A stretch of 64,000 nt of DNA from Psammoneis japonica (lineage: Eukaryota): contig QPGO01000178.1 of the NCBI GenBank assembly GCA_008632985.1, forward strand, positions 1 to 64,000. The letters are read 5' to 3'. The notes beneath the pieces were generated by a model. The model made no database searches. It saw only the letters and a program-made list of their open reading frames with translations, and had not been told where the DNA came from. Shown here in pieces: positions 1 through 53,609 of the stretch. Within the stretch, counting starts at the first letter, position 1, and each line of letters begins with the position of its first letter. A program made the position numbers and the translations under genes.

Positions 1-416
1 GCAACACTGGCAGGCAGGTGCATCAACAAAGAAGCACATGTCTGACTCCCTGCATTTTGGCATTGCACAAAGTGGCTCCATGACACCTTTTGGCTCACCC
101 CTGTTGAGCAAGTTTTCTCTCCTTCTCAAGACAGGTCCAAATTTTTTCTCAAAACATGGGAAAGCATGGAGCTCACACTGCAATCAAGTGGTTGAATTTT
201 GTGCCAAGTCACATCACAAGAAATTGGCACCCCCTTTTTCCCACCTGTTTCTTGGAGCCCCCAAAATCCATTGAATTGGCAAGCTTCTTGTGAGCCACAG
301 CTGTGGACATTTTGGAAAGCATGCAGGTGAGAAGCTCTTTGGGTGTGAAATGACAGAAAATCCCATTGTGCTGTGCTGGCTGTTTTGAGGAACCCAAGCT
401 GTTGGAACATTGGGGC

Positions 417-690
417 AAGGGGCAGTTTTTGCAGGACAGCAGACAGACAACATTGCAGCAGAGGATGTGCCATCAAGCTGACAATTGTGTTTGATGTGGC
501 AAATTTACATTTTTGCAACTTGGGTTGAGTTGTGGGTTTTGTGCTCACTTTTCAGCTTCTGCACCCGGTTGACACAATCACAGCAGTTGACAGCATTGGG
601 AATGTGGTGTTTTCAAGCCATGCAGCGAGCCTGGGGTTCTTGGCAAGACAGAGTGTGTGCCAGTTGGTGAGCCATGATGCTCCAACTCAG
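417..690 (+). repeat. Diverged direct repeat, second copy at ~2578-2840
   Basis: Shared words ttttgcaggacag, cagacagacaacattgcagca, ggttgagttgtgggttttgtgctca and agccatgatgctccaac occur in both copies; many differences are CA<->TG swaps. Confidence 0.85.
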
Positions 691-899
691 AAGCCAAAAG
701 TCACAGCAAAGCACTCAAAGGAGTTGTGTTGTTCAAAGAAAAAGAAGCAGTCTCTGGAGCACTCTTGCTGTGTGCACAGGGCAACTGCAAGGGTCTGCTG
801 AAGGAGGGTGCAGCAAGGTTGTGTTGGGCTGGGGCAATGTGGGCAAGGGGATGCAGCTGAATGTGGAAGCACAAAAGATTTAAAGGAGCGGGTGTGTGA

Positions 900-2170
900 C
901 ACCATTGCTGAGTTGGGTCAACAGGCAGAAAATTGGTGAGCATGTTGGAAGAATGTTTGGGCCAGAGAGGCAGGTGCTGGTGTCTCTGCCAAGACAGGAG
1001 AGCAAGTCAGAAGAGCTGAAGCATCCATTGGGAGTGACCACATTGGAAAGGAACAAAGCAATCTGGAGCAAGCAATGTGACCACAATCCAAAACAGAGTG
1101 CAATCTGTGAGATGCAGAAGGCAAAGGCATTTGGCAACATCGAGGGACAGTGCACAAAGGCTGTTTGTCACAAGGTTGAAGGAGCAACAAAGTTTGCAAG
1201 GGTTGCAAAGGAGTGGGAAGTGGTGGCATCATTGGGAGCTCTCAAGTTGATCTTCTTTGGTGCAAATGGGAAAATGTGCTCACATGCCCAGGCAGTCAAG
1301 GCTTGGATGCAGTTGGTGCTCATTCATCAGGACAAAGGAGAGGCACACTTAAAGATCATTGCAATTGGCTCACAAGTGCTGTTGAGATGGTGGAAACATC
1401 CTGCAGAAGAGTCGTCCCAGAAGAAATTGCCAAAAAAGAAGATGTGTTCAGCTTGGATGCTGATGACACCCGGAACAAAGAAAAGAGCAAGTTGTTGGCA
1501 GCAGCGCCAATGGAAGGTGCCAAGGAACAGCAGCATGTCTTCAAAGACCTGCACCAGCAGTTTGCAATGGGGGTTGACAGTTGCCCCAATTTGGCCGAGG
1601 AGGCACTGCAGCTGATGGACATGCGTGGAGCCAACAAGAAGCCCAAGGGGGCAAGTTTGTGCAAAATGAAAAGAAGCAGAGTGATCAAGTGCTGGAAATG
1701 TGACAAGGTTGGGCATGTGAGGGAGGATTGTCCATTGCTCAATGGCAACGATGATCATTCATTGGTGGAGTTGGATGATGCAGGCCACGGGAATCTGCAG
1801 AGTGGTCAAAGTGGTGTTGGATGGCATGATTTCTAAGTGTCATCCTCCTGTGCTCAATTTCTGTTGTGGCCAAGGAATGCCTGTTGGGAATGACTCTTGT
1901 TTCTGTTGCATCTTGCACATGACAAATGTGCATGGAACCAAATGTGTTGTCATGCTGGTGGGACCATGGTTGCATGATGCAAATGTGCACAGATTTCAAT
2001 GCATGATTTCACCAGTGGGACCATGGGCCACTGCTGGATTTGTTGCACTGGAAGCACCAGTCACCATTCACTGGGGTGCCACATGGTGTGCATTGCCACA
2101 TCATGTGCCAAGGCTTCTCTGGCTTGACCACAAAGACACATTGCTGGAGAAGTGCTGGAGTGCAACAGAC
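900..2170 (+). mobile_element. Degenerate LTR-retrotransposon gag(-protease) fragment, probably Copia-like
   Basis: CCHC zinc knuckle CWKCDKVGHVREDC at ~1690-1732, followed by a possible protease remnant (NDS...LHMTN, ~1890-1925). Boundaries approximate. Confidence 0.55.
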
Positions 2171-4169
2171 ACTTGAGAAGAAGTCAATTTCAAACCAGCA
2201 AAAACATTTCCAAAAACAGTGCAGAACAGAAGTGGGCAGAATTGCACTGCCAAACAATGTGATGATCACTTGACAGACAATTGAGTCACTGCTGCATTGT
2301 TGAATGCACAGCACACTGCGCCACCAACACAAGAAGTCCAGAACACATTTCATTTGCACTCTGGTGTCAACTGCTTCCATCTGAAAATTGTCCAAGCCAG
2401 ATCCACTCAAGTTCTTGTTGTTTGAGCCATTGAGCAAGCACAAGCATGGTGTCAAGGTCAACTTGAGTGCTGATGTGGAATGAGCATGTGACACATGGCC
2501 TGCCTTTGGGTTCCAGGCCAACTTTGTGCACAATCCTTCAATGCAAACATGTGGCACCAACAATGGACCATCAAGGTGAGGGGCAGATTTTGCAGGACAG
2601 ACAGACAACATTGCAGCAATGGACACTCTGATGATTGTGTGCAATGTGGTGAATTCACAGTTCTTGCAACCCAGGTTGAGTTGTGGGTTTTGTGCTCATT
2701 TTTTAGCTTCTGCACCTGGCCAACACAACAGCGGGTGTGATTGGCAGCATCAGGAATGTGTTTGCAAGCCATGTGGCAAGTTTGGGGTTGGTGAGACCAA
2801 GCATCATGTGCCAGCCGGCAAGCCATGATGCTCCAACACAAGCACCCTTGTCCAACTCAAAAAATTGCAGCAAAGCCCAGAGTTCACCCTTTGACAGCTG
2901 TGTCTCATCACATTTTAAGGGGTCAATTGACATGCCCTGATTTTCAGGAGCAAAACAACCAGACATTGTGCACCCCTTGTTCATCCAGACAAGCAATGCT
3001 GAGCCCAGCTCCACACATGCAATTGCCAGATCAAAACACCTGCCTTCACAAGGTGCTGGGGGGCAAGCAAGATCAGAGCCCTGGTTGACCATGCTGTCAA
3101 TGACTCTGCATTTTTTTCATGTTCTGCACAGTCTTCCCATGCAAAGCTGTGTCTTGCAACTTTTCAGGTGCAAAACAAGACCCTGACATGACTGCTTTGT
3201 CCATGCACACTCTCTTTGACCATGGACAACATTGTTGCCCATTTCTTTCATGGCAAACACCACCTGGAAAGTTCACACCTCCCACCTGTGACAGGACTGC
3301 ACTGAGTCATGCTCAAGCAACATCCATCATGCAACATCTGTCATCCATGGTCTCCATGCCTCATTCCTTTGGTGATTTTCAAACTGCAGATTGGTTGTTT
3401 GTTGGCTTGCTGCACAGCACTGTGTTTTTGAGCCCTGAACTTGGCCTCTCATTTGTGCAGCAAGGCTGGCACAAAACCTGAATTCTGGCATGGCCTCCTT
3501 TTCACAAAATGATGGATGTGACTGAACAAAAGCAACCTTGGTGGAATTCCCAGCCATCAAGCAATCAGGCTTTTTGTCATGGCTGTCACAACTCTTGCCA
3601 CAAATGTGACAGCAGCATTTGGCCCTGTGCGGCTTGTGTGCCACACATGGACTTTGTGCCTTTCAAAATCTCGGTTGCTTTGCGCGAATGCGCACATCGG
3701 CCCCATCCGCCCAAAATCAAGTGCTGCGTATCATGCTTCTGCGGTACTTTTCCAACGACGAGGTCAGAATTCAAAAACCATCAACGGTGAAAATGGCGTT
3801 CGTCTCTGCGATGCTCGTTTCAAAGACGATCGGTTCGATACGGCCGATAGTCCCTATCCTATGACTGACATGTACAACATATGGTATTGTGATGAAAAAA
3901 GTTAGTGTATTGAGTTGCAGTTTTGCGTCTTGTGGTGCAGTGTCGTGTTTTGATGTTTTTGGGGGTGTTGCCGCGTTGCCTGCCGTTGTCTTACTCACAG
4001 TCGTTTATTTCGTATCATGTTCCAGAGCAAGGTATTGATATTATATTATTCACAGTATTGAAGCCTTATGATTGATGTGGATTGAGTCATGGATTGTGGG
4101 GGGCGAACCAAGCCAAAGCGGCTGATCATTTGGGGACGCTGCAAGTGCCGCTTCGCATTGTTTGTCCAC

Positions 4170-4790
4170 GATGGATCGACTTGATACTCAACAAAAGCAC
4201 CTGGAACGACTTTGGAGTGTTATTGGGTATCTGATTCGTTTGGTGACGCATCCTTGCACGGTATGGCGTCAATCTTGCATCTCATTCTTGGTTGTTGATT
4301 GTTGGTTGTTGGCCGCGGGGTCGTGCACGACTGCTCAACTTGATGCTGCACTCAACAAAAGCACTTGGAATGACTTATATGCAACAATTGCAGAGTACTG
4401 TTGCGTATTTGATTTGTTTTGTGAAGTGTCCTTGCACGGTATGGCGTCAATCTTGTGTCTCATTGTTGCTTGTTGGTTGTTGGCCGCGCGTCGTGCACGA
4501 CTGCTCAACTTGATACTGCACACAACAAAAGCACTTGGAACGACTTATATGCAACAATTGCAGAGTACTATTGCGTATTGGTTTGTTTTGTGATGTATCC
4601 TTGCACGGTATGGCGTCAATCTTGTGTCTCATTGTTGGTTGTTGGCCGCGCGTCGTGCACGACTGCTCAACTTGATACTGCACTCAACAAAAGCACTTGG
4701 AACGACTTATATGCAACAATTGCAGAGTACTATTGCGTATTGGGTTGTTTTGTGAAGTATCCTTGCACGGCAGGGCGTCAATCTTGTCTG
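4170..4790. repeat. Tandem repeat, ~3.5 units of 162-178 bp
   Basis: tccttgcacgg recurs at 4251, 4429, 4598 and 4760 (periods 178, 169, 162). Units are highly similar and retain TA and CG. Confidence 0.95.
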
Positions 4791-5402
4791 GAGATTTGAG
4801 ACAGAAGCAAGCGGCTGGCTCACCACACCAGTCAGTGGTGAGCGCATGCAATAAGTTCAAGGGTGTAAAGCCCTTCTAAACCAACAGTATGAGCATTCTA
4901 AAAGTATAGCTATATTGTTCAGTAGTGAATTTTGTTTAAGACTGGACGTGGAGGGGTCACATCCGTGCCCACCCCGCGCTTCATGCGTGCCAATGCATGC
5001 AGGATACCAAGATGCTGCATCGACAAATATCCCGGAAAGCAACCGAGAAATGCGAAAGGCACAAAGTCCATTGGAAACCATCTGCTTTAACACACCATTG
5101 TCAGAAAAATCACAAATGATTGTGTCATTAAACTGTCAGGTTGTCATGCCACCACGTGCCACTCCAATTGCAGAAAATTGTGCTGTGATGAGAAAGTGAG
5201 TGTGTGCAAGAAAGAAAACCCTGTGTGCACAAAAACCACAAATTCCCAACACTCAATTGCACACCTGCTCTGGTGGATGCATCTGTGCACAATTCAGAAG
5301 TTGTCAGGTGTTCTGCATTCATGGCCACACAAAGCACTTTGATTGGCTGAGTGGAGACAACAATGCTGTGCAGAGTTGTGTGCTCAATTTTGAAGCCAAC
5401 CC

Positions 5403-5474
5403 CAGCTGAGTGAAAAAGAAAAAAAAAAAGCCAGCCTCAACTCTTTTTATTTTGTCATTTTGGCAACCTGAGGC
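5403..5474 (+). repeat. ~72-bp hairpin-containing tandem unit split by the LTR element; second unit at 11374-11451
   Basis: cagctgag..aaaaagccagcctca..ctttttattttg..ttttggcaacctga versus cagttgag..aaaaagagccagcctca..ctttttcattttg..ttttggtgacctga. Confidence 0.75.
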
Positions 5475-5479
5475 CAGCC

Positions 5480-5827
5480 TGCTGGGCATCTAGAATTGGC
5501 TGAAAATGTGAGAAACCTGGAGCTGTTGAAACAAAGATTCTCTGATTCTTGATGTGGCAGATTTGGCAACATTTTACAGATGAATGTGCACTCATCACCA
5601 ATCTCACCTGCCTTTCAATCTGTCTCACTCTTTGGAGTGAATCATCTGGTTGCACAAATTGCATTGTGGTGTCATCAGGTGCCTGCTGTGTCACAAGTTT
5701 GAAGTTTGTTGTTGAGAGCTTCCAGGCAAACCACAGCCACCAAAGCAGCCAAGGCAAGTGCAGGAGTGAGCAGCATGGGAAGCCTCACAGGATTTGCTTT
5801 TGGCGACATTGACTTGCTGGTTCAACA
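5480..5827 (+). repeat. 5' LTR
   Basis: Starts tgctgg, ends ttcaaca; colinear with 11025-11373 (aaaatgtgagaaacc, atctcacctgcctttcaatct, ttgagagcttccaggcaa). Confidence 0.9.
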
Positions 5828-8800
5828 TTCACTCAAAAGAGTTGCAAGCACTGTGTTTGGTGCTTGCAAAGAACACTGACCAGTGCATGTGATCTTCTGA
5901 CACAGGAGACCTGCATCATCAGTGGCAGGTGAGGAGGTGGATCCAATGGCAGAGGCTGAGGTTGCAACCAAGTCAGAGGTGACAAAGGCTGCAAGTCTTC
6001 GTGCAACAAAAAAAAGGCCAACCCAAAGAAAAACTTCAAGGCAGAGATGAAGTCTCACCCATCATCAATGAACAGCAATGGTCAAAACGCAGCATGCAAA
6101 GACATCAAGGAAAAGATCATCCATCACACACAGAAAGAGTGTGATCAGGGCATGCATCTGTCAAGGTCTTTGGAAGACATGAAGTGCAAGGAGTTTGCCA
6201 ATGAGAGCCCATGTTGAGGTTGCCAATGACGGTGGTCTCAGGGACAGAGTCTGCCAATTGTCAGACCAAATTGGCCAAAACGTTGTGAGAAGAAAGGCAA
6301 CTGGAGCACAAGCACAATGTCATGCAGCACAGCTGCGCAGCCTTGTGAGAGAATGCTGCCCAGGCAGGAATTTACACCCAAGAACCCTTGAGAAGGAATG
6401 GATGCATTGCTGAACCACCCAAAGGGCAATGATCCCACAACAAGAAGAACAATGAGCACTCCAATTGCAAGAGTGGAAACAGGGCCAATGATGAGTCCAA
6501 AAACCAAGATCAAAGTCATGCTCAGAGCAGCAATCAAGGTGGCACTGTGGTGTGTTGTTGTTGTGGTGAGCCAAACCACAAGTCCTCAGACTTAAGACAC
6601 AAAGACAAGATGCCACAAAGGGGGGGGGGGGGGGTGGAATGGAGGCCATTTGGGGCCCGCCAACAGATGTGCAAAAAGAAAAATGCCAAGCACACACACC
6701 ATTTTTTTATGAGAGGAACAACATTGTTGCAATTCTGCCTGAGATTTGCGAGAAGCAGAGAGAAGGCACAATCCTCTGCACCGCCATTTTGGAAGCATGT
6801 GGTGCCAAGCTGCTGCACACAATTGACAAGACAATCAAGCGCCAATCAAGTGTGAGACTGAAGTCCAAGAAGCACAACATTTTTGCAAAGCCTTGGACAT
6901 GATTCTCTGACAGCACAACACAAGTGTGATCCCAAGTTCAAGGACATGCTGGTGGAAGTCACGGATGGCATGAATCTAGAACTTGCATCTGCAAATGCCA
7001 AGGACCATGTTCTGGAAGTTGAGCGGAGCATGCAGAGCCATCAAGGAGCAAACACAAGCCACTGCACATCATGTCTGTGCAAGATGACACCCAAGTTGAT
7101 GTGCAAGCAAGCTGCAATCAAGAACACGACTGTCAAAGAGATTTCCAACACTTGCAGTCCACACACCAATGTGCAACAAAAAAAAACTTAAATGTGACAA
7201 ACACTTTGAGTTCAAATTTGAGGAATTTGTGATGTCCCATGTTGAGAACAATGCAACAAATGCTGTGGAAGCACACGGCATTGACAGTGTTTGCCTGTGA
7301 CCACATTTTGATTTGCCCAGAGCAGACACTTTGCCATGAACCTGCAAATGAGCAAGCAGTTGACTCCCTGCAAATGTGCCTCCATTCCCTTGGCCAACAT
7401 GCACATTGCAGCTTTCAAAGAGATGGCCATTCAACAAGGCATTGAGGAGCTCAAGTTCACAAGGAAGTGCAGAGATGATTTGTGTGATGCTGATTGGGCC
7501 CCCGCATGAGTGGACAATGACAAAAATGAAAGCAACAGCAACAGCAACAGCAAAAACAATGAAAGCAAAAACAATGCAAGCTGCACAACTGAGTCAGAAG
7601 ATGTTGAAGACTGTGAAGATGAGTCTGGCTCAGATGACAACCGTGGTGAAGCAAATGACACACCAGCTGACAAAAGATCTGGTCCAAACCAACAGCGCCA
7701 AATTCAAGAAGAACAAGAGGTCAAGGAAGACCCAGAAGATGACAAAAAATGCTGCAACAATGAAGAGTCTGAAGAGGACAATGACACTCATGCTGATGAC
7801 AGATGGGTGAGCAATTGCAGGAGGAAGAAGCAAGAGACATGCCATGTGCAGAACTGCAAGAAGTGGAAAAGGATTGGGTGCATCCTTCAACATGAAATCA
7901 CACAAAAACACAGAAAAAGTTTGATTTGCAGGAGTGGCAGATGCTGACAAAGAGGTGAACAAGCAATGCAAGGTTGAGCACTGCCATCATTCATGTGCCA
8001 ATGCAAGCCCCAATCCAGAGGACAATGTTGGACATGGAGTGGAGACAGCAATGGTGCTCACACACTTCATGTGTGAGATCAACAACTGACTCCAAAGTGG
8101 AGAGGGCACACATTTTGTCCAGCAACATTTCCTCCATGAAGGGCACAAAGCATTTGGCCAGAAGGGGCACATGATGCCTCAGAGAAAGAAATCAGACAGT
8201 CACATGACCAAGTGTGCTTTGCACCAGCATCAGCCAAGGATGTGACCCCAGCTGAAAGAGCCAAGGCCATGGCGGCCTTGACTCACCAAGAAACAAGATG
8301 GTCGTGTGAAAGGGCTGATGGTTCATGATGGCAAAGCAACCTGAGAGCAGCTGGACAAAGACAAGTCAGCCAGCCATGCTGCATCCCTGGAGGAGATGTT
8401 GATGATGGCAATTGTTGATGCTCATGAAGGACAAGATGTGATGAGCGCCAACACACCAAAGGCATTCACACTGACACACAGTCCATGCCAGAGCCTGAGG
8501 AAGACAAAGACCAGACAAAGATGAAGATTGGCCTCTTGCAGGAGTGCCAGCCAGTGTGCTGGTGAGCATTGATCCCAGCCTGCATGGACCTCATGTTGTC
8601 CTGAAAAAGGGAAAGAGAGTCCTCTGCCTTCAACTCATTGAGGCTGTCTGCAGCATGTCAATTGCTGCTTTGCTGTGGTGCAAACAGTTTTGCAAAGACT
8701 TGGGAGCAAATGGGGTTTAAGTTGAACCCATGCAATCTGTGCATTGCCAGCCAAACAGTCAAAGGCAAGCAGCGCACTGTTTGATTTCATGTGGATGACA

Positions 8801-11024
8801 AGTTGTTGAGCCACAAGAACCCAAAAGCAAATGACAATTGTCTGAGCTGGCTAAATGAGATGTGCAGAAGCCATGGTGAAGTCATCACTGCATGAGGCAT
8901 GACCCTGGATTTGAGACAACAGGGCAAAGTGAAGGTTGAAATGATCAACTGTGTTTGAACATGATTGACCAACTTCTGGAAAAGTCAAAGTGTGCAGATT
9001 TTTCTGTGACTCCAGCTGGAGAGAACACATTTGACACCAGCGGCACAAGACTGCCAATTGAGAAGGCACTGATCTTCCACACATGGGTGGCCAAGGGGCC
9101 ATTTGTGTGAAAGAGAGGCCACATGGACATGTGCCCCACTGTTGCTGCATTGTGCACACATGTCAGAGAATCTGCCAATGAGGGTCAGAGGAAGCCAATC
9201 CATTGTCTCTCAAGTGTGTGAATTGGATGAGAGACACAAAGTTGCTGCATTGAGCATGAAGGACCTCCAAGTTGTCAAGTGGTGCATGGATGGGTCATTT
9301 GCGGTGCACCCTGATTTCAAGAGCCACACTGCCTTGGAGGAGTCATGACAATGGGCAATGGGCAGTGCAGGCTGTTTCAAAGTGCCAGAAGCTCAGCAAC
9401 ACCTGAAGCAGCACAGAAGCTGAACTTCTAGGAGTTGATGATGCCATCACTGTGATGCTGTGGACAAAGCTGTTCATGGAACACCCAAGAGCATCCAATT
9501 GACAAGATCATCCTGCATCAGGACAACAAAAGCATCATCCCATTGGAGACCAGTGGGTGCAAGAGTGCTGGCAAGTGGTCCAGGGCAGTCAATGTTGGGT
9601 GTTTCTTTGTCACTGATCAAATCAAAAAGGGCAACTTGCAAGTGCAATGCTGCCCTGCTGATGACATGCTTGGAGACTTCATGACTGAGCTGTTGCAGAG
9701 CAAAAAGTTTCAAAAGTCCAAATGAGCCATTGTGAGCTGTTGGCTTTAAGTGTGACAAAAGTGGTCCCTGTTCTTTGTGACATCAGACAAGAATTCTGAC
9801 ACATGTGGGTGAAAGATCCCTGTGACCTGGAGAGGGTGACAAGCCAAAAAGGTCAAGCAGCCACAACTTGTTTTGACAGCAAACCTCAGCCATGAGCAAT
9901 GGCAACATGATTGAGAGTGGCCTTGAACTGACTTTAAGAAGTTCATGAAAACCGCACATGAAAAGGTTCAAGTTGTTGCCACTGAGGAGCAATGTGTGCA
10001 AGGCACAAGGTTTTTGCATGGAGTGATGCAAGAGCTCCAGGACAAAATCACACTGCTGTCTGCACATTTGCCACAATGCCACAGACTCAAACAAAGTGTG
10101 CAAAGAATGGAAAAAAGCAAAAATCAAATCTCCAGATGAGTGTTCCAAATGTGGGGAGCCAGAAGAAATGGGTCTGTGGAAAGGACCATGGATGCAGAGG
10201 TGCAAAGCAATGTCAGAGACATGCATTGTGAGAGCTGGGTGGAGTGACAAGTTAAAAGCACCATGTCTGCTGCTGCACTGATGTTGCCAAGTGGGTGCAC
10301 AGGACCAACACTTCTGGCAATTCCCAGGCAGCAGCCCCATGAGACAGCAGAAGACATGCTGTGATGAAATGCATGGCAATGATGAGGTTCACTCAAGAGA
10401 CAAGAAGTGCATTGCTGGAATGAGAGGCAACAACAATGTGTGCCAGCCTTCTTCCCACAGGAAAAGTCAGTTGCCAGTTTTCCTGCCTGTGGCATGGACA
10501 CCTTGTGAAACTCATTGGCGCAGATCTCACTGTTTCACAGGATCAACATGGACTCATGATGGATGACAATGGAGTTGTCTGTCATGCTTGAAAGCAGGCA
10601 TCATTTTTCCAGCATGAGATTCAATGGTCACACCACAAGAAGAGATGGCATTGTCCCAACATGGTGTTCCTGGAGTTGACTCTGGAGATGGTCAATGGCT
10701 GGATTGTGGAGCTGGTTCATGACCAGGACAATGAAGATGAAAAAGAAAAGCTTTGCCACACTTGTGTGGTGGAGTGTTTTGTTGAGTGTGTTTGAGAAGA
10801 GACACGCTCATTCAACAACTTGGTTGACCACAGTGACAGTGACAAGTGCACACATTTTTGTGCATTTGCAACTTGCAGAATGACAATGCTGAGAGTCCCA
10901 ACACAGGTGGCAGTGATGCCAAGAATCGGGCCTCCTGAACAGACTCGAAAGCCCTAAAACTGCAACAAGCCCAATGAGTGTGGGTGGCATGAATGGCAGA
11001 ACATCATTGCAAGCATCAGGAGTG

Positions 11025-11373
11025 TGTTGGAGCACCTGGAACGAGCAAAAAATGTGAGAAACCCAGAGCCATTGAAAAGAAGATTTTTCAACTCCTCACA
11101 TGGTGGATTTGGTGATGTTTTGAAGATGGGTGTGTGTTCCTCATCACTGATCTCACCTGCCTTTCAATCTTCCTCACTCTTTGAAGTGAATCACCTGGTT
11201 TGTGCATGAGTTGCATTGTGGCATCAGCAGGTGCCTGTTGTGCCACAAGTTTGAACTTCATTGAGAGCTTCCAGGCAAGCCACAGCCACCACAGCTGCCA
11301 GAGCAAGTGTGGCAAGTGGCACAGGAAGCTTTGCAAGATTCCCTTTTGGCAACATTGACTCACTGGTTTGACG
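11025..11373 (+). repeat. 3' LTR
   Basis: Starts tgttgg immediately after the PPT; colinear with 5480-5827. Confidence 0.9.
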
Positions 11374-12133
11374 CAGTTGAGCAAAAAAAGCAAATGAAAA
11401 AGAGCCAGCCTCAGCCAGCTCCTTTTTCATTTTGCTGTTTTGGTGACCTGACCGGCACAGAACTTAAAAACTTAAAAAGCCTGGCACACTTGGGTGTCTT
11501 TGGCGTGTTGTTGTTGGTGGTGTGCGACAAAAAACCAGCATGGACGAGGGCGATGATGATGGCCCATGATGGCAAATTTTTCTGAGCCTGTGGGTGCTGT
11601 TTCTTTTTTTGTTCAGTGCAAATGCAATGGGGTTGTGGGGGGTGGTGATTTTTAAGTGGCTGTCAAGTGGGGGGAGAGTTTTTGCACACACTTCCTGCCT
11701 CTTCTCGGTCGAGGCCCCACTCTTCAAGCAGCCAATCAACACCATTGAATGCTTCGTGCAGTGTCTGCACAGTGCAATTGGTCAGTCTGTTCCCCAGCGA
11801 GTGAGCTGGTTTTCCTTTCAATTTGGTCGCAAGGCTTTTGATTGGCTACAGTGCAGTGTTAGTAGAATTCCGGGTCCTGTGCGGTTCATGGGCTGACGTA
11901 GAGCAGAATTCTATTGTGTTCTAAATTCTGAAATTCTGGGTGTGTTATTCCCGGAAGAATTTCCTGTAGGACTTCCGTATGTCTCGTAGTATGACAGTTA
12001 TTTGTTCGATGACGTCGCCTGCAAACCGAAACCGCGACCAAATGAAATTCTGCTCACTTTTTTTGTGAACAACGTTGTTGATCTAAAACTGCAACGATCA
12101 CCTGACTTCTCCATCTCAGACTTTTTTTCAACA

Positions 12134-28834: not shown

Positions 28835-29221
28835 GGAATCCTGAATCATTTCGAGAGAGAAGAAACTTTAAATATGCCGTTTATAAGGTGTTGCGCAGCG
28901 TATAGTGCAAGAAAGAGACGACGACAACAACAACAACAGCGGGAACGCAATGGTGTTGCAGGTTATATTGAGTTGTGGGTTGTGGCAGTTTCGTCGTGTT
29001 GAAAAGATCGTGAAGGATTTGAGACCTCGGACCTCGCAACCGGGTGGCGTGTTCCTTCTTGTGCGCAAGCCCACTCCCTCGGATCGTAACATATTTCAAC
29101 TGGCGCACAGAGAGATTTCTACGTGATTTCTACGTACCTCGTACGAATCACGTAGCCGTAATAGCACAAAACGTCTGGCCTCCACCCCAATCCTATGCCG
29201 GTAACACTCCACACTCCCGCC

Positions 29222-31433
29222 CACCCCTGTGGTATGAATAGGGGAGCTGTGTGTGTGCGTGGTTGTGCGCGCACGGCTTCGCCGTGCGTTGAGTTTTAAT
29301 GTTAATATCCACACGAATGTGTATATTCCATAAGTAAAAATTCCTATTCCACAGCTCCCCTAAAACTCTAACCACCAAAAACCGAGGGGTCGGAAGCGCA
29401 CTTTCGGGAGCTCTTTTTCTCCGCACAAAAAACACGCGTTTCGTCGACTCGACCATGATGATGCCTCGTGGTTCTTCCCCATCGCCTTCCCAGGACGCCG
29501 ATCCTGCTGACACCGTTGCTGGTGACACTGATGCAACAGGCAATGTCATCATTCCGGTTCTCGTGGGTGTGACACGTACAAAATAAGATGCTGCAAACTC
29601 ACACTGTTGTTTGCACGCTCCACCGCCTCCCACAGATGCTGTCACGAATTCCAACGCCGCACCTGCGTTTCGGGCCCCTGGCATGCCCGATGCTGTTGCT
29701 CCTGCCCTTGCTGCCGCAGGCACTGTTGACACTGTCATTGCATTTTGCCAATGACGTCCACAATGAAATGCCAATGACTCACACTTCTTTCATTCTCGCC
29801 CCACCGCCTCCCACAGATGCCATCACGAATTCCAACGCTGTGCCTGCGTTTCGCCCCCCTGGCATGCCCGATGCTGTTGCTCCTGCCCTTGCTGCCGCAG
29901 GTGCTGTTGATGCTGTCATTGTCTTTTGCCAATGACGTCCACAATGAAATGCTTGTAACTCACACTTCTTTCATTCTCGCCCCACCGCCTCCCACAGATG
30001 CCATCATGAATTCCAACGCCGTGCCTGCGTTTCGGCCCCCTGGCATGCCCGACACTGTCAATCCTGCCCTCACTGCTGCAGTTGCTGTTGACACTGTTGT
30101 TGTTTTTGCTTTGGAAGGAACACAATGGATGACGGATGACGGCGGACCAGGAAACCCACGCAACCACGGCCTGCTGATGGACGACACATCAATGGACATG
30201 AATGGGTGGTTGGCTCTCGAGTGCAGTCCAATCTTCAGAACACACAGACACATTGTGCAGCTCTCTGTGGGTTAGAAACCTGATGACAATTAGATGGCAG
30301 GCATGCTTTCACAGTTTTTTAGTTTCAAGTTGGAGAGGTCAGCAAATTGGCATTTGTTTGCAGGTGACTTGGCAAGGTTTCAAATGGTGCATGTGACTTG
30401 GACACTGCTCCATTTTCCAGGACTGGGTCATCATGTGCAATTCCATGAGAGGCCACTCTCGCCGTTTGAACTCCACATGTGATGCACAACATGCTGTTTT
30501 TGCACGTTGCTAAAATGGAGGCAGGCAGCAACGTGCTTTTGGCAAATGCTCACCATGTTTGTCACCATTGGACCTTCAAAACCAGTGCCTTGTCGACAGC
30601 CATGCTGCCACTTTGCATGCCGGCACCTTCTCTGCCCGTGTTCCATTGGCTGCGTCCTCCTTCACATGTTGCTGCGGTTCATCTTGACACTTGTTGTTGG
30701 CTCCGATTGGTTCCGCTGGGCTCTGGGTGAGTCTCAATCACCTTCAGACAGACAAGGTTCTGCTTGGGAACAATCATCCCGAGAAAGGTTGTCACCACAC
30801 CTCCTGTCATGGATGCTCCTCTGCCACGCCCACTGAACCTTGACGTCGGTTTGTTGCTTTTGTTTTTTGACCTGGTTTCGGAGCTGCACCCCAGACCGTT
30901 TGAGAGAAGGCTCATCAGTGCCTTCCACAACACGGCGACACGAACGAGAATCCATTTCTCTGGGGACGCAATGACAGGAGCAGACCAATCACGGCACTGT
31001 GTTTGTGTTTCAGGCACAGGATCCGGCGAACAGAAGCCCAAATCCTCCGGATGGCAAATCGGCTGTGTTTGGGTAACGACAGCGGGTGCAACGGTGCCGG
31101 CCAACACAGGAGGGACTGCCGCATCAGACATGGCAGGCGGGGATGCGTCATGTGGTGTGGGGGACGAAGAACGGGAGGTCGTCATGGTCGAGTCGACGAA
31201 ACGCGTGTTTTTTGTGCGGAGAAAAAGAGCTCCCAAAAGTGCGCTTCCACCCCTCGGTTTTTGGTGGTTAGAGTTTTAGGGGAGAACATGGTTCAGGATT
31301 TTTCCTGCTACTGTCAGCATTTGTGTACAAATGCATAAATAAATGTGAGGACATTTATATAAAAATATAATGAATAAGATATAAACTGCCACGTAACCAT
31401 GACATCACCATATTCTCCCCTACCACAGGGGTG
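29222..31433. mobile_element. Nested MULE-like element with long interrupted TIRs and 9-bp TSD
   Basis: TSD actcccgcc at 29213-29221 and 31434-31442; the empty site is visible in the second copy (50293-50301). Terminal IR cacccctgtggta; inner ~105-bp IR 29355-29458 vs 31182-31284; an ATG at the inner edge of each TIR. Confidence 0.92.
29596..30105. repeat. 181-bp tandem repeat, ~2.8 units, inside the nested element
   Basis: caccgcctcccacagatgc at 29621, 29802 and 29983. Confidence 0.95.
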
Positions 31434-31754
31434 ACTCCCGCCTATTTATTGTACCGGCCGGTACCAAGAGGTTCGATTCTCTCATGCTTTTGAACTTCAT
31501 TCAGCACCCCGTCTACTCACCACCAGTCCAAAACAACACGAGTGCATCTCTTTCAACTGGAAAGTTGATTGACAGAAGAGTGAAGAAAGATCTCTTTCAG
31601 AACTTTTACTCTCTTGACTGTACCAGCATAATGTAAGTGTGACGAATCGGGAAACTCGGGTCGAGTCGTCGACACGGCCGGATTGAAGTCAAAAGGAGGT
31701 CCGCAGGAAAACAAAACAAATAAAGAGCTAAGAGAGTTATAATAAGACTGTGAA

Positions 31755-32180
31755 AAGATGCCAGCTCGATTCCCAGATAAAGGTGACTCGATGCAAAAAA
31801 TCGATACTACTCATTGCATGGAGTGATCTGAGTAACAAACCCCGGCCAATCGCACGATACTTTGCACCTCGGGCAAGAATAAAGCCCACCCAACAGTATC
31901 TGAATAAATCCCATAGGAGTGATGTTTCTGTCACCAATCTTCTCCAAATCAAACATTGCCAGCATAACCACGTACACGTCCTTTTCCCACCTGCAAATGC
32001 TCCTTGAAACCAACTGATCCACCACGAATGACGTTGTTGTAACCTGCAAAGATGTCCTCCAAGAGATTGATATCTTTCGACCTCCTAATGATACCAAGTT
32101 TTCTGGGTTGTCAAATAGATCAGGGTGTCCATAATGTCATCGGATGCAGAGAGGTCTTCAAGGAATTTCTTGCAAGGCCA
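31755..32180 (-). pseudogene. Captured, internally deleted fragments of 1,3-beta-glucan synthase (GT48, FKS/callose synthase family)
   Basis: PLCIR*HYGHPDLFD, SKDINLLEDIFAGYNNVIRGGSVGFKEHLQVGKGR, GAKYRAIGRG and YRFFASSHLYLGIEL match GT48 hallmark motifs, with stops, frameshifts and deletions. Confidence 0.88.
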
Positions 32181-33009
32181 CCTAGCTTGCCAGAGAACTC
32201 ACACACCGTGTTTTAATACATGATCCATGAACACCACTGTTTGTATCATCAACATATTCCATAAAGTAAATCATGAGGCCCTTTCGTGGGGAAGAATCTG
32301 CGTGCGGACCGAGAAACAAACAGAATAAGTGCCGGACCGCTGTCGTCTGTTGGAAACACACCAACCACGAGCCGCGACGTCCAGAGCTCGTCTCAAACAC
32401 TCCAAAGGTGCCATACACATCAGCGCCTTTTATCTATATTTATTATGAAACGAATGAGGCATAGGTAAAGGGATGAGAGGAGGGAAATAATAACAAACTC
32501 GACGAAACATACCGGAACGACGACAACAGCGGCAGACTCATACACCGAAGGAATCGAAATCGATATTCTTGCGCGGAGTGGCACTTGTCAAAATTCAGCC
32601 AACACGTAATGGTGCTATAGACAAATGTCGACAATATCCTGAGTGACTCACCTCGTGAAAACAGGTGACAACGACGGTGGACGCGAAACAAATTCGCCAT
32701 GGTGGCTACGCAAATTCTGCGTAGAATTTTTCGTTTTTGTACCAGGAACCAAAAAAATCGCACGTTGCGATTTTTTTAAGCTGTGCCAGTTAGCCTGGTA
32801 CAGCGTTATGTTACGATCCGTGGGAGGTCTTCTCTGTCTTCTTCCGTACCACTTACAGACCTCCCAGTTGGGAGTGGCGCAAGCCACAAGCGAGCCTTCG
32901 TCTTGAGCTGGTCGAGTGACACAACATGGGCTCAATCACCCCGAAAGCAGCCATCAGCGCTCAGACGAGGAAACGGCTTACAATTCCAAGACATTTAATG
33001 AGACTGGTG

Positions 33010-34400
33010 TGGCAGCACGTCGTCTCGATTTAGAGTGGCTGCGAGAGTTGTGACCTCCTGTGATGAGACCTTGCTGGGCACAGAACAGAAACCATGAGAG
33101 AAGGTTTCTCAGGTGGTGGGACCACTTTGTTGACATGTGTCATCTCCAAAGTGCGCTGGCGCGTGTCTTTTGTTCTCAACCAACACCTGTGAGTTGTGTC
33201 ACTTCAAGAGCTTCGCAGTCACAGACAACGCTGTGCTCTCAAAGTCAAAAAAGCCTTCAGCACTTTTGGGGGAAGCAGCAGCAGCAGCAGCATCCACATT
33301 GCATTCAAACAGGGCACTGTGGTCCTTGACAGAGCTCAAAGGTGCACGTCCAGACCCCTCGACCCACCAATGTCATTCAGAAAAGGTTGCTGGGCTGGGG
33401 CAGCTGCAACACCAAAGTTCTTGTGAAGAGCTTGTTGCACATTGTCAGCGACTTGACAGCAGTGGATTTCCTTGGGAGTCAGCAGAGCAGGTGCCAGGGC
33501 ACTGCAGTTGGCTTCAATCACCTCGCAAACTGCCTTGTTGTCATGATGATGATGGCTTCCAGAGCAGTTGGGAGCTCGGGATGAGCAAAGCTTGCCAGCA
33601 CAAATGACTTGAGCTTGACAAAGCCACTGGCAGGTCCAAAATGGTCATCAGCACATGAGGACACAGCACTGAGACATGAAGAGCAGAGCATGGTGTGAGA
33701 GTTTGCATGAGACAAACAGATGTCTTGTGTGCTGAACACAGCAAGCTGGCATGCTGGCCGGATGTTCCAGCATCTTGACTGTGATGGAAGTCATCATGGG
33801 GAGCCACCTTGTTGGCAGCAATGGCTGTCCAACCATGGGCCTGTGGGCAGCATCACTAAAAAACAATGGAGCCACATGCTTTTTGCAAGCTGAGCGAACC
33901 TCAAAAGCAGAAAATCTGGTCTTGATGGACTGAGCCAGCTGAGGTTTTGCAACCATGATGGTGAAAGAGATCAAAGTGGGTCTTGCCTGATGGAGCTGAG
34001 CGAGGTGAGACCAAGTCTCATGCCAACAGGCAAGACAAGCTGGAGCGAGCCAGAGAAAGTCAATGTCATGTGCAAAGAGATGTTCCAGACATTGTGAGAG
34101 GATTAGAGCTGGTCTCTGATCTGAAATGGTGATCAACCGTGTCAACACCCAGCCCATTCCTCAAGATAAAGTTCAGTCATGGTTTCCTGGATGAAAACAA
34201 TGTTTGGTCAAGAGGTTTGATGTGGAGCAAGGGAATGATCATTCCCTGTCAGAAAATGAGTGCAAGGATGGTCATTTTGGTGATGGTGTTGAGTTTGGCA
34301 GCTGTGTGTTGGATGCAAAGCATGGCAAATGGCAAAGTTGATCCCCAACGGCAGTCATGGTGTTGCATGACTGAACATTGTGGTTTTTGAACAAGCAAGG
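33010..34400. other. TpA-depleted degenerate block D, origin not recognised
   Basis: TA nearly absent (survivors ctaa, ttag, one ataa); Tyr-free ORF fragments. Confidence 0.8.
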
Positions 34401-34601
34401 ACATGTAATGTGATCGCAGCAATGAGCCGCAGAAGCTAATGATTGCTGTGATCTCTCCCTCTTCATCATGTCATGATGAAGTTGAAATCCTACAACCGTT
34501 ACTACACCTTCCGTTAAAATCCGGCCTAAATACTTTAATTCAAAGGTCTTAGTCGTAGAACACATCATGACATCTTTCCGCACTGAAATTCGCCCTCTGT
34601 G

Positions 34602-36043: not shown

Positions 36044-38869
36044 CCTCAATCTTGGTCGCTTCAAGATAAGTCAACACGGGGTTGAACTAAACAAACAACA
36101 ACTTGTGCGAGCTCTGGGTAGCCGCCTGGGTTGAAGTCACCATCGTGGCCTATGTACTCGACAAATTACACGTTGTACTCGTACACTGCAACAGAGTCAT
36201 GCTCGTTTTCATAGTCTGTTCATGTAGTGCAAATAAATCCAGTTTGCATCCCGCATTGAGCACCGCTCTTTGTCACTCTCTCCAGAAATCCGGAACAGCA
36301 TCGGCCTGGACAACAAGAACACCGCAGAAGTTATTATAGTAGAGTCGAAAGCTTTTTTTTTGCTGCTTCGATGATTAAGGATTAAGGCCCTAGCTAGAGG
36401 GCCGTTCTGTATTGATTGTTCGCTGCCCGCGGCGGGGGACGTCTCCAGACGACTCCAGCCGGCCAGCTCTGCTGGCCGAGAAATCTTGTGTGCGGTACGG
36501 TACATACATTGCGACCGGCAGCTCTCTCTCTACGGCACTAGCTACTAGAGAGAGAGCTACCGTACCGGTAGCTGCAATAGAATTTGTATTGAAAGAGTCT
36601 GTCAATCAGTGCGTTTGAGAGTTTTGGCCAAATTCGGTGAACGCAGGACAGAATCGACGTCGTTTTCGTGCACACTGGGGCCCTGCGAATTGCTGAACCA
36701 TTGCGCGATTTATCCCGGGTTGGCGTCAAGCAAACTGAGTGTGGTTGTTGTCCATTCGTCGAGTGTCGACAAGTTGACAAAGACGCTCTGCCGTCTGCCA
36801 ATGCAAGGACAAGGCGTCTTTGCGCCACGCTCTTGGTGCACGCCATTTGGGTCCGCCTCTTCCTTGACACTGCCTGCATCATCATCGTTGACGCGTTGGC
36901 ACCTTTTCTTGTCCTCATCACCAGCAGACAAGGGAGAGAATTCTCCATCTAGAATCAAGGCATCTTCAACGTCTCCATCATCATCGTGCTCGTCGGCAAG
37001 CGGGAAGACAAGCTGTCGTGCTTTCATGAGCTGGTGAAAGTGCAGCACCTCCAGTTCCTCGCGAATGTCTGCATTGTCAACAGAGAGAAAAATGAAGATT
37101 GTGAATTTGGGGTCACAAACAATGCACCACTGCCTCAAGCATCTTTCAACTCACTGATTCCGTCAAGGGTCATGAACACAGCAAACGGGTCCTCCAACAC
37201 TTGGATGCACTCAAACAAGGTGGATGAACCAAGTGCTGCAAACACAGCAAAGCATGTGCCAATGCCAAGGGATCCCACATCCAGAGCAATCTGAGCAAAT
37301 GTGTCGGTGTGCAGAATGGTGGAAGAAACAGCACAAGCAGCCGAGCAAAAAAGCCAACAACGCCTGCGGAGTTTGGCACATCTTCACAATTCTCAGTCCC
37401 TCCAGGCTCTTCCCAATGTGTTGCAAGCACTGCTGCAGATGAGACACTTCCAAGCCAGAGAGTCTGGCAGCTTTTAGATTCTCACAAAGGACAGTCAGCA
37501 CCACCAGTCTCCTGGTGCAGGCTGGTTCAAAGAGAGCACAACTGACTTCCATGGTCCTTGCCGCCTCTTTTCGACCACGACTGGTCAACCAATGGCGGCC
37601 ACATGATGAAGTCGGCAATGTGAGAAAACGCAAGATCTCATCCCCAATCAAGGCAAGTTGTCTCAGAACATTGTCAGGATCCAGTTGACACACATGGCCT
37701 TGCGTCTTCCGGAGCCTCCATCCCAGTCACAAAGGGCGTGACTCAAACAAATTTGGAAGGCAAAGGATCGAAACTCTGTGATGTGTGGGAGAGCATCCTC
37801 TCAATGACGAAAGGCGAGACCAATTGAAATGGACAGGGGCATTGCCATGGCTGTTCGTAAGAACCAGAAAGATTAGAGTGCAGTGTGAGAGTTACAAAGT
37901 CAAAAGCCGTGACACCATTCTCTCTCAAACGAACCAACGATTCTCACGATTCTGAGCTGAAAGGAATCACTTGCCAAAACCAAGGAGAATCCACTCCATG
38001 GCAGAGGCACTCCACAATTCATTGTCTTTCTTGGCATCGTGCCAGCAGATTGTCAGCCCAACACTCACAGATGCAGACACAACAGTCACGACCTTGATCA
38101 GGCAGCAGAAAATGACTTTCAGAGCAGCAACAACATTGAGAACAAAGAGAACGACTGGACGTGTCTCTTCTGTGTCCCTTGCAAGGTCCTCCTTTCATAA
38201 AAGTTCTTCTTTTTGCTTCTTTGCAACACTGGACATGTTCAGATCCCAAGCAGCCATTTTCATTGGAGATTTGGAGTTCTCAGTGGACGATTTTAGTCCA
38301 GCTTGCATCATGACCACCTCCTCTTTTTTGGAGTTCTCACTCTTCCTGTTTAGATTGGCGCTGGCCCGCTGGTGCTCATCCCCATGAGACATGCCTTCTA
38401 CATCACCAAGACTGGGTCTGGAGGAGGGACGCATGTCAGCCATTTCCTTGCTTCCCGACTCCCCCAAAGTGCTGCCAGTCGAGGCGGCTCAATGCAACAT
38501 TTTGGCAGAACCGGGACTGCCAACCATGCTGTCATCAAAACCAAAAGTTGCAAGCAAGTGAGCATCAACCTGGTGCTGTCTTCTTCATCTCAGAGAGTGG
38601 AGAGTCATTGTCGTCATCAAACAAAAGTCATTGCAAATCCAAATCGCAGCACTTGACTGTTGCCTGACAAAACCATGAATGTTTGTGTGCATGTGCACAT
38701 GTGTGACAATTGTGCAACTTCAAGTCACCACAAGTGCGTGTGACATCTTCAGGGCCCAGACATTGAACCCGGATTTGCCTCATTTTTCTGTGATCCAAAT
38801 GACATCCAAACTTCAAATCTTTTGGTTGGAGCTTCAAACCATCATCATCTTCTGTCTCAACTCTTAACA

Positions 38870-40960: not shown

Positions 40961-41530
40961 TGCAGAGCGCAGCTTCAGTCTCCCCGGCGGTGCTCATCAG
41001 ACCTTTGTGCTCCACTGTGCAGCACACTGTTGGAAGCAGATGCACTTCCGAACCTGATCTGAGGTGTGCCAACAGCAGCAAAAACTTCGAGATGATTTCC
41101 AGCGACATCCGAGTGGCCATTTTTAAGAAGCAGAACATGTGTCTGTCACTCCAGACCTGCGCCAGAAGTGGTGGAGAGTGGAGACTACAACTGCCATACG
41201 AGAGTGTTGTAGACTCTAGCTAGAACTGCCGTACTCTAGCAGAGGGCCCCACTCTCTACTGTGCTCTGCTGCTAGAGTAGAGAGAGAGAGAGAGAGGGCC
41301 CTGCAGTGCATTTCCCTGGACTCGACTTGTTGTTGGACTCATCACTCTCCCGGGACTCATCACGCACGACGCACGTACTGATCGCTTTTCTTTCTCACAT
41401 TTTTTTATTCGACTTTCGACGAGTGTCACTTCTTGTTTCTCTGTTTACGATACATATCGCTGTTGTCGTTGTCTTATTCCAACTGTGTGCTGCTCGCTAT
41501 CTCTGCAATCGTATACAGTCTTGTCGGATA

Positions 41531-42720: not shown

Positions 42721-42784
42721 AGGAAGTTTGCGCCGCACCACGACGGGTGCAACATCGCTTACGGTGCGAATGAATTACTTCCCC

Positions 42785-43118
42785 CTACATTCGAAGAATG
42801 GATTCAAGCATTCTTCGTGCTTGATTTGTGTACATTCCACCAAACAGAACATCGTGGTTAAAAGTGATAGAGATTGCATACAGTTTCCCTCTTTTCGTGA
42901 CCCTGTACAGTAGTAGAGCGATCTGTATGCGAGGAACAATGTGCCCATGGAGAGCGCAAAAGGTCTGAATCCTCCTTACCTCTGGTAACGGCGGTTCGCT
43001 CTCATACCCATTGTAAAAGTCGAATCCAAAGCTGCCAAACAACGACGTCATTGCGACATCTGCCTCTCTGTCCCACAACAAATTCAGGGTCGAAAATCAC
43101 TGGAACGACGCCATCATC
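42785..43118 (-). pseudogene. Truncated 3' duplicate of the fructosamine kinase gene
   Basis: Colinear with 53874-54212 (DREADVAMTSLFG); frameshifted; 5' part replaced by block F. Confidence 0.9.
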
Positions 43119-53550: not shown

Positions 53551-53609
53551 ATCTAGCTAGTAGAGGTTAGAGAGAGCCTGTGCTTCTTGGAGGGAGGTGG
53601 GTGCCTGCT

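What the first reader, a model, noticed from the sequence alone, without database searches (positions are those of the whole stretch)
1..11850. Sequence-context rule: 5'-TAY hit, YTAR spared
Seen: in the saturated blocks almost every surviving TA lies in TTAA, CTAA, TTAG or CTAG (~880, 1349, 1834, 2704, 2916, 5491, 6593, 6977, 7188, 8718, 8852, 9428, 9747, 9934, 10253, 10955). In the 31.4 kb/50.3 kb alignment about three quarters of mutated adenines are in 5'-TAY on the mutated strand, most others are in RTAR, and only one is in YTAR. Inference: a tetranucleotide preference like this suggests an enzyme footprint and can be compared with known deaminase and polymerase signatures.
Basis: seen in the sequence. 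Interest (0 to 1): 0.8.

Follow-up and report, generated by a model that had tools for sequence, protein, structure and literature searches.

The report
Sequence fingerprint of diatom TpA mutator
In this diatom genome a process rewrites the A of TA steps to G inside silenced repeats, several times faster when C or T follows than when A or G follows, and this fingerprint can be used to identify the unknown enzyme.

Summary
Confirmed and refined. Comparing intact and erased transposon copies from the same diatom genome (2,558 copy-site events) gives rates per adenine: +1 base T 1.0, C 1.2, G 0.5, A 0.3; an A at -2 doubles the rate, an A at +2 or a T at -3 about halves it. YTAR survives because both strands are TAR, and mainly with an outer T or A (120 of 190 kept, against 11 of 258). 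The model predicts survivors in independent blocks (rho -0.77 over 131 hexamers). Rare non-TA hits also prefer +1 pyrimidine. Changes are almost pure transitions, on both strands independently, and are real DNA. Pol eta, ADAR-type RNA editing and RIP fail their tests. Best reading: DNA adenine deamination in silenced chromatin (about 50%); Pol iota, which the genome encodes, is a rival. TpA hypermutation is published for Bigelowiella, without a flank rule in its main text. This scan noted the process and a TAY rule before on other pieces of this genome.

The parts
1..3728 (.). Saturated TpA- and CpG-depleted block (6 TA, 22 CG); zinc-knuckle remnant in the frame 1180-1833
3729..5129 (.). Undepleted island: intact copy of a repeat whose relatives L094 and L095 are erased (40 of 44 and 29 of 37 TAs changed to TG or CA)
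5130..11846 (.). Saturated block (18 TA, 41 CG); 6500-9750 is a multi-copy degenerate repeat that looks like a Ty1/Copia pol remnant by recalled motifs (no Pfam match for 10 fragments)
506..11654 (.). The 24 surviving TAs: 19 YTAR, 5 TTTAY, 0 RTAY; 23 of 24 have T at -3 or A at +2 (46% in undepleted DNA)
29072..29221 (+). Left end of an intact family-1 element (1.6 kb, 9-bp target duplication; Mutator-like by recall)
29222..31433 (+). Family-2 element nested in family 1 (9-bp target duplication, inverted ends); interior erased, terminal ~150 bp intact
31434..32877 (+).
50152..51492 (+). Partly erased family-1 copy (L007): 45 of 49 differences from L003 are A>G or T>C
33032..34405 (.). Further depleted block (3 TA)
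36588..41123 (.). Further depleted block (13 TA) with GMC-oxidoreductase remnants
43015..45474 (.). Further depleted block (11 TA)
50598..53553 (.). Further depleted block (11 TA)

Best explanation
Shown: inside bounded repeat domains, A:T pairs at TpA are converted to G:C after insertion, one site and one strand at a time, at a rate set by about six bases around the adenine (best A-A-T-[A]-Y, worst T-Y-T-[A]-A-A). A hit on either strand destroys the TA on both, so a site survives only if both of its strands are poor targets; this is why YTAR, and above all TTTAAA, TCTAGA and CTTAAA, remain. Inferred: the agent is a zinc-dependent adenine deaminase (ADAT2/TadA fold, or the diatom ADAR-fold protein) acting on chromosomal DNA in silenced, CpG-methylated chromatin; the hypoxanthine pairs with C at replication and fixes as G. 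It works like a slow, inverse RIP, probably as genome defence. Confidence in the context rule is about 0.95; the figure given is for the deaminase.
For: Purity: at 126 family-2 TA sites, 1929 of 2463 copy-sites are TG or CA, 519 TA, 8 CG and 7 anything else. TpA specificity: 157 of 424 TA adenines against 10 of 714 AA, 9 of 616 CA, 5 of 640 GA in three family-1 copies. Rates with site bootstrap: +1 A 0.30 [0.19-0.42], G 0.52 [0.34-0.70], C 1.23 [0.85-1.69], T 1; -2 A 2.0 [1.4-3.1]; +2 A 0.44 [0.30-0.56]; -3 A 2.6, T lowest. A +1 term fits far better than a -2 term alone (AIC 1086 against 1170 in the pairs). Non-TA adenines, which have no competing partner, show the same +1 rule (130 of 8445 before a pyrimidine, 20 of 8809 before a purine, p 3e-22). 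Independent survivors are predicted, and an additive two-strand model fits ten tetramer classes (deviance 14 on 6 df; flat model 490). TadA-derived editors are best after T, better before C and worse before A, with under 1% transversions (PMC8989541, passages), and ABE8e off-targets fall at TA (PMC13225742, passages). The Bigelowiella study proposes ADAT2 (bioRxiv 10.64898/2026.01.13.699255, parts 1-3 of 5). The genome has ADAT2-like, TadA-like and two ADAR-fold genes; no match to the glycosylase family PF02245 was found. Element ends are kept where the flank is undepleted (rho 0.65, 30 ends), which fits a chromatin domain.
Against: No enzyme was tied to the process; every candidate is also a housekeeping or diatom-wide gene. 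TadA editors are lowest after A and their context effects are only 25-52% inside the window (PMC8989541), whereas here AA is the best secondary context (13 against 6 per 1000) and TA exceeds it about 60-fold; TadA8.20 has little context dependence (PMC10625715, passages). No strand-coordinated runs were seen (925 of 1906 neighbours on the same strand, 48.5%, against 49.2% permuted), although bursts on single-stranded DNA would give them. Endonuclease V is present. The sequence cannot show whether A or T carries the lesion. Methylation is inferred from CpG decay only. The tetramer model leaves a significant residual (p 0.03 and 0.006) and the hexamer model over-predicts RTAY survivors with outer T/A (25 predicted, 5 seen). 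Copies share sites, so events are not fully independent; in the pairs alone the +2 A effect is weak (0.89 of T, about 0.65 of C or G).
Confidence: 0.5

Rival explanations
1. DNA polymerase iota fills short gaps in silenced DNA and puts G opposite template T; the TpA and flank rule come from the polymerase or from whatever opens the gap.
For: The genome encodes a Pol iota (G000 C22:252.3-253.5 kb; best solved relative human Pol iota, E 2e-26; the aligned steric-gate and finger stretch is kept). Pol iota inserts dG opposite dT 3-10 times more often than dA, and some diatoms have POLI while others lack it (PMC8595933, PMC3979402, passages). The direction of change is exactly A>G on the new strand. 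I recall that the error is strongest when the template T is preceded by A, which would give TpA>TpG, but I found no passage for this.
Against: Fungal Pol iota also inserts dT opposite dT more often than dA (PMC8595933); here TT or AA outcomes are 3 against 1929 transitions. Direction and rate do not depend on the side or nearness of a CpG, so gaps are not anchored at decayed 5mC (rho -0.12, p 0.26; total rate rho +0.20, p 0.05). Human Pol iota made in yeast did not raise mutation rates (PMC3031609, discussion).
Confidence: 0.18
2. A modified base laid on silenced DNA miscodes or is converted: a methylated adenine in TA(Y), or an oxidised thymine in RTA on the other strand.
For: A writer with a short motif would explain the very sharp TpA specificity and the domain limits. 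The data are symmetric between A and T.
Against: TAC is hit as fast as TAT, so ApT methylation is not the mark. No Tet/JBP match in the genome (absence is not shown by this). 6mA writers were not searched.
Confidence: 0.17
3. Pol eta patch synthesis (WA>WG), as in immunoglobulin hypermutation.
For: Two eta-like genes; AA is the best secondary context. Pol eta mutates A after A or T to G (PMC2213188, passages).
Against: TA adenines are hit 157 of 424, AA 10 of 714; transversions are almost absent; no link to CpG position.
Confidence: 0.04
4. A-to-I editing of transposon RNA, copied back by reverse transcription.
For: Two ADAR-fold genes.
Against: Both measured families have inverted ends and 9-bp target duplications, as DNA transposons do; each copy carries both A>G and T>C without strand runs; ADAR2's hot spot is UAG (PMC10661471, passages) but TAG is hit at about half the rate of TAY.
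Confidence: 0.01
5. Basecalling or consensus artefact at modified bases, or inherited composition or selection.
For: The library type of the run that holds the sequence is not on record, and it may be the sample the window was assembled from.
Against: Run X1 holds 91% of 702 sampled words of 5130-11850, and its contigs match other depleted blocks with 0, 0, 10, 12 and 13 differences over 0.7-8.5 kb. Intact and erased copies of one element coexist. Copies choose TG or CA independently. Reverse changes are 8 in 16 pairs against 529 forward.
Confidence: 0.02

Closest known systems
TpA hypermutation of integrated viral DNA in Bigelowiella natans (Mettrop et al., bioRxiv 10.64898/2026.01.13.699255; parts 1-3 of 5 and a term search read; supplements closed)
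   Same: Almost only A>G and T>C, at TpA, on both strands, in foreign or repeated DNA, about 1000-fold above background; TpA-depleted clusters with transposon domains; adenine deamination proposed.
   Different: There it was measured in two viral regions and TpA persists (3.3% in the NCLDV region); here about half of 19 sampled 10-kb stretches is erased (92.8 of 187 kb), transposons and gene remnants are hit, and a six-base flank rule and secondary NAY hits are measured. The words flank, context, trinucleotide and diatom do not occur in its main text. The host is a diatom, not a rhizarian.
TadA-derived adenine base editors (ABE8e, ABE8.20)
   Same: A>G on DNA, best after T, better before C, worse before A, under 1% transversions (PMC8989541); genome-wide off-targets at TA (PMC13225742).
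   Different: Engineered enzymes with mild context effects, lowest after A; here TA dominates about 60-fold, AA is the best secondary context, TAT equals TAC, and -2 A and -3 A help.
Repeat-induced point mutation (RIP) of ascomycetes
   Same: Repeat-confined, saturating dinucleotide hypermutation linked to silenced DNA (recalled; PMC7296669 seen as a listing; DNMT4 link in PMC9998398, passages).
   Different: Opposite chemistry (destroys TpA rather than making it); no strand runs within copies; the most repeated parts, the element ends, are spared next to undepleted DNA.
DNA polymerase iota (dG opposite template dT)
   Same: Same direction of change; an orthologue is in the genome.
   Different: No known role as a regional mutator; the T:T by-products expected are nearly absent.

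Membership tests
Bigelowiella-type TpA hypermutation | Almost only A>G / T>C transitions | tested here: met
   1929 TG/CA, 8 CG and 7 other outcomes at TA sites; 191 of 213 differences in three family-1 copies
Bigelowiella-type TpA hypermutation | Restricted to TpA | tested here: met
   157 of 424 TA adenines against 24 of 1970 others; a secondary class of about 1% exists
Bigelowiella-type TpA hypermutation | Confined to foreign or repeated DNA, about 1000-fold above background | tested here: met
   Sharp blocks; TA exposure 1.27 per site against 2 transversions in 4505 bp, ratio about 2,850 but resting on 2 events
Bigelowiella-type TpA hypermutation | Active only in some lineages or at some times | not testable with these tools
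   Needs mutation-accumulation lines; 3 of the 9 closest family-1 copies are hit
Bigelowiella-type TpA hypermutation | Same flank rule, hence same enzyme | not testable with these tools
TadA/ADAT2-type DNA deamination | 5' T best; 3' C up and 3' A down; transitions only | tested here: met
   against PMC8989541
TadA/ADAT2-type DNA deamination | 5' A worst, mild context effects | tested here: not met
   AA 81 of 6241 against CA+GA 66 of 10994; TA about 60-fold above AA
TadA/ADAT2-type DNA deamination | Inosine intermediate and an enzyme active on DNA | not testable with these tools
   Candidates exist; activity needs the bench
RIP | C>T transitions, mainly at CpA | tested here: not met
   C>T at CA 1 of 629 in family 1 and 1 of 6176 in family 2
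RIP | Homology-triggered, premeiotic, RID/DNMT4-dependent | not tested
   DNMT4 was not searched; sparing of element ends speaks against homology alone
Pol eta signature | Both TA and AA are hot (WA) | tested here: not met
   157 of 424 against 10 of 714
ADAR editing | UAG hot spot, RNA substrate, one strand per molecule | tested here: not met
   TAG 0.52 of TAT; both strands mixed in each copy
Pol iota signature | Orthologue present; G opposite template T | tested here: met
   direction of change agrees
Pol iota signature | T:T misinsertion as a by-product (A>T) | tested here: not met
   3 TT/AA against 1929; repair could hide them
Pol iota signature | Flank dependence of the G:T error | not testable with these tools
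   No passage found; the review asked for is not held

The most novel reading that the evidence does not exclude
Diatoms, and perhaps SAR protists at large, have a dedicated genome-defence mutator that converts A to G in double-stranded chromosomal DNA of silenced repeats with an A-A-T-[A]-Y preference: a natural DNA adenine editor (ADAT2/3, the diatom ADAR-fold protein without RNA-binding domains, or a Pol iota-dependent pathway) that has rewritten about half of this genome.
Probability: 0.45. Interest if true: 0.9.

Novelty: new variant of a known kind. Interest (0 to 1): 0.7.

Why it matters
Natural enzymes that deaminate adenine in genomic DNA are barely known, and the one published case of TpA hypermutation has no identified enzyme and, in its main text, no motif beyond TA. 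A quantified six-base fingerprint makes the question testable: candidates can be assayed on a hexamer library, and the Bigelowiella mutation list can show whether two distant lineages share one enzyme. If the agent is Pol iota, it would give that polymerase a biological role. The process also distorts transposon dating and annotation in diatoms, since it removes TAA and TAG stops and tyrosine codons from dead elements.

Tried and rejected
Literature: searches found no paper on TpA erasure in diatoms; one search found only the Bigelowiella preprint. The library lacks most subscription papers, so this is not proof of absence. An intact relative of the 8200-9750 repeat was sought: 54 matches, the 29 fetched relatives all erased over the matched part, so the finding's own blocks have no direct ancestral reference and undepleted DNA and intact elements served as proxies. 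The 42536-43100 duplicate has only two copies and was not used. An equilibrium (loss and regeneration) model fits survivors worse than finite exposure (deviance 42 and 60 against 14 and 18), and rate heterogeneity adds nothing. A purine/pyrimidine-only rule is too coarse (deviance 116 and 80). I first read the coexistence of deep CpG decay and high TTAA survival as a sign that the process stops; resistant hexamers explain most of it, and TA density still falls from 5.6 to 2.4 per kb with CpG loss. The no-context row of the joint fit is faulty and is not used; its +2 and -3 terms include survivor data that are confounded by block composition, so one search is quoted instead. A compositional trace of secondary NAY hits in 1-11850 was not clear. 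No link of hits to CpG position. No RNA holder was listed for 5130-11850; run X2 shows spliced joints, and its lack of cover over depleted blocks is not used as evidence. Pfam gave no retroelement match for 10 fragments of 6433-9722. A plasmid search with family 1 was empty and irrelevant. Atlas look-ups only repeated the Pfam families. PMC11334849 and PMC5558901 gave no neighbour-preference figures. UV TA photoproducts (recalled to give A>T) do not fit. Rows dropped: family 2 used 23 of 30 loci (one near-duplicate and six diverged copies left out) and 126 of 180 candidate columns; the pair set used 16 of 93 matches, chosen as non-redundant and for unequal TA content; the repeat set used 27 of 30 loci (the window's own copy and two overlapping loci left out; the scripts label it copia29).
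Full report
Setting. The window is G000:C177:1-64000 of a 91.4-Mb genome in 597 contigs. It is a diatom or close to one: named relatives of two of its proteins come from Skeletonema, Thalassiosira, Seminavis, Nitzschia, Fistulifera and Chaetoceros, and the listed hits are 33-58% identical. Seven blocks (23.7 kb) have 1.6-4.5 TA per kb against 35-49 elsewhere, with CpG loss and TG/CA excess at unchanged GC. In 19 arbitrarily placed 10-kb stretches, 92.8 of 187 kb scored as depleted.

Observation. All 16 listed sites are surviving YTAR TAs within one base. 19 of 24 survivors in 1-3728 and 5130-11846 are YTAR (241 of 1594 in undepleted DNA, p 9e-12; 30% expected from block composition, p 1e-6), none is RTAY, and the other five are TTTAY. 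The span also holds an intact island, 3729-5129, whose relatives L094 and L095 are erased.

It is real DNA and it happens after insertion. Run X1 holds 91% of 702 sampled words of 5130-11850, and its contigs match other depleted blocks with 0-13 differences each; its library is not on record and it may be the source sample. Family 1 has five copies within 1-5 differences of each other, one intact copy with 26 mixed differences, and three copies with 45 of 49, 64 of 73 and 82 of 91 differences being A>G or T>C. In these three, 158 of 220 TA sites are hit, 16 of 233 CpG sites have decayed and 2 transversions occur in 4505 bp. In 23 family-2 copies the choice of TG or CA agrees between copies at 42-76%, around the 59% mean within sites, with no close sisters, and neighbouring hits share a strand 925 of 1906 times (49.2% in permutations). 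So hits are single, on either strand, and spread over many rounds.

Why survivors alone mislead. TA is palindromic, and a hit on either strand removes it from both. Survival therefore depends on the sum of two rates, and a '+1 pyrimidine' rule cannot be told from a '-2 purine' rule by survivors. Survival by tetramer in the 19 stretches runs TTAA 0.54, CTAA 0.31, CTAG 0.20, GTAA 0.16, CTAC 0.12, ATAA 0.047, GTAC 0.018, ATAG 0.013, ATAC 0.007, ATAT 0.004 (387 survivors). An additive two-strand model fits (deviance 14 on 6 df, still p 0.03) far better than flat (490), Y/R (116) or equilibrium (42) models.

Direction of change resolves it. In 16 intact/erased pairs, 406 of 529 hit adenines are in TAY, 82 in RTAR and 41 in YTAR. 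At mixed sites the TAY strand takes most hits in both data sets (TTAT over ATAA 87:37 and 219:155; TTAC over GTAA 41:12 and 131:55; CTAC over GTAG 39:7 and 154:52). A competing-risk fit to 700 site rows and 2,558 events gives, relative to T: +1 A 0.30 [0.19-0.42], C 1.23 [0.85-1.69], G 0.52 [0.34-0.70]; -2 A 2.0 [1.4-3.1], C and G near 1; +2 A 0.44 [0.30-0.56]; -3 A 2.6 [2.0-3.7], G 1.8, C 1.4 (150 bootstraps over sites). The +1 and -2 terms agree between pairs and family 2; the +2 and -3 terms are weaker in the pairs alone. YTAR sites are kept 11 of 258 times without an outer T(-3) or A(+2), 100 of 163 with one and 20 of 27 with both (41, 35 and 5 site rows). In the finding's blocks 23 of 24 survivors have such an outer base, against 46% elsewhere. 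The commonest survivors in the pooled blocks are TTTAAA, TGTAAA, CTTAAA, TCTACA, GCTAAA, TCTAAA, GTTAAA and TCTAGA.

Secondary targets. Non-TA adenines change to G at 130 of 8445 copy-sites before a pyrimidine and 20 of 8809 before a purine (p 3e-22), with transversions near 1 per 1000; AAT is highest (48 of 1459) and AA exceeds CA and GA about two-fold. In family 1, 21 of the 24 non-TA hits listed are NAY. The +1 rule thus belongs to the mutator itself.

Where it acts. The terminal ~150 bp of family-2 copies are mostly kept where the neighbouring 500 bp are undepleted and lost where they are depleted (rho 0.65, 30 ends, p 1e-4; L089 is a clear exception). Hits do not depend on the side of the nearest CpG (rho -0.12, p 0.26). 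TA loss runs about 13-18 times faster than CpG decay in the same copies. I infer a silenced, CpG-methylated domain with an edge about one nucleosome inside the element; diatom transposon methylation by DNMT5 is published (PMC9998398, passages) but was not measured here.

Mechanism. Outcomes at TA sites are 1929 TG/CA, 8 CG and 7 others, as expected of one miscoding product such as hypoxanthine. TadA-derived editors share the 5' T, the gain before C, the loss before A and the purity (PMC8989541, PMC13225742, passages) but are lowest after A and far less selective. Pol eta (WA; PMC2213188, passages), ADAR (UAG; PMC10661471, passages) and RIP (CpA>TpA, recalled) each fail a defining test. The genome holds a TadA-like gene (C38), an ADAT2-like gene with an insert of about 60 residues between its zinc motifs (C26), two ADAR-fold genes (C40, C79; the C79 one has relatives across diatoms whose only listed Pfam family is the deaminase), Endonuclease V, no match to PF02245 or Tet/JBP, and five Y-family polymerases, one a Pol iota. 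Pol iota prefers dG opposite template dT (PMC8595933, PMC3979402, PMC10779026, passages), which is the right direction, but the T:T by-products are missing and I could not confirm its flank preference. I put deamination at 0.5, Pol iota at 0.18 and a modified A or T at 0.17. Whether A or T bears the lesion is open.

Known and new. TpA-only A>G hypermutation of integrated viral DNA is reported for Bigelowiella natans, with ADAT2 as candidate (bioRxiv 10.64898/2026.01.13.699255; parts 1-3 of 5 and a term search read; supplements closed, and they may hold flanks). Searches found no diatom case. This scan has noted the process many times in this genome, and a TAY/YTAR rule on three other pieces; these notes are not independent support. 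Verdict: real, a new variant of a recently described kind, interest 0.7.

Noticed in passing
window 21955-23889, minus strand: DNMT3-like cytosine methyltransferase gene with introns (Pfam PF00145 E 3.5e-8; best solved relative DNMT3A E 6e-10). Diatom DNMT3s are known (PMC9998398).
   Followed up: partly
G000 C22:252.3-253.5 kb, minus (L172:4316-5482): DNA polymerase iota orthologue; the finger motif matches xQKxxxxTxNY in 117 of 120 listed relatives.
   Followed up: partly
G000 C79:344.2-345.9 kb (L161:3171-4887): Second ADAR/ADAT1-fold deaminase with relatives across diatoms; the C40 gene looks like the ordinary ADAT1 by recalled motifs. No tree was built.
   Followed up: partly
G000 C26:119.7-120.6 kb (L162:2701-3644): ADAT2-like gene with an insert of about 60 residues between the HAE and PCxxC motifs.
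   Followed up: partly
window 29072-32877: An almost fully erased family-2 element sits inside a family-1 copy that is intact and 99.9% like its sisters. Either it moved after erasure or targeting is element-specific; not resolved.
   Followed up: partly
window 39972-40957: GMC oxidoreductase remnants inside an erased block: host-like genes can be hit.
   Followed up: no
window 42536-43100 and 53610-54193: Local duplicate (85%, two copies in the genome) near two CRAL-TRIO genes; each copy abuts a depleted block.
   Followed up: no
window 33659-37525: Differences between the assembly and X1 contigs in depleted blocks are mostly transitions at CpG or at NAY, with one CA/TG swap at 33675-33676; 20 sites looked at, of 40 rows shown out of 156.
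   Followed up: partly
window about 49900-50150 and 39222-39423: Short high-copy repeats (summed contig depth 1290 and 720 in their bins, about 60 around them).
   Followed up: no
window 50190-50889: Run X2, which shows spliced joints, has contigs over family 1, so some copies of that element may be transcribed.
   Followed up: no
window 57862-59276 and 20399-20566: Repeats inside coding DNA: spondin-domain gene with internal duplications; an 84-bp tandem pair.
   Followed up: no
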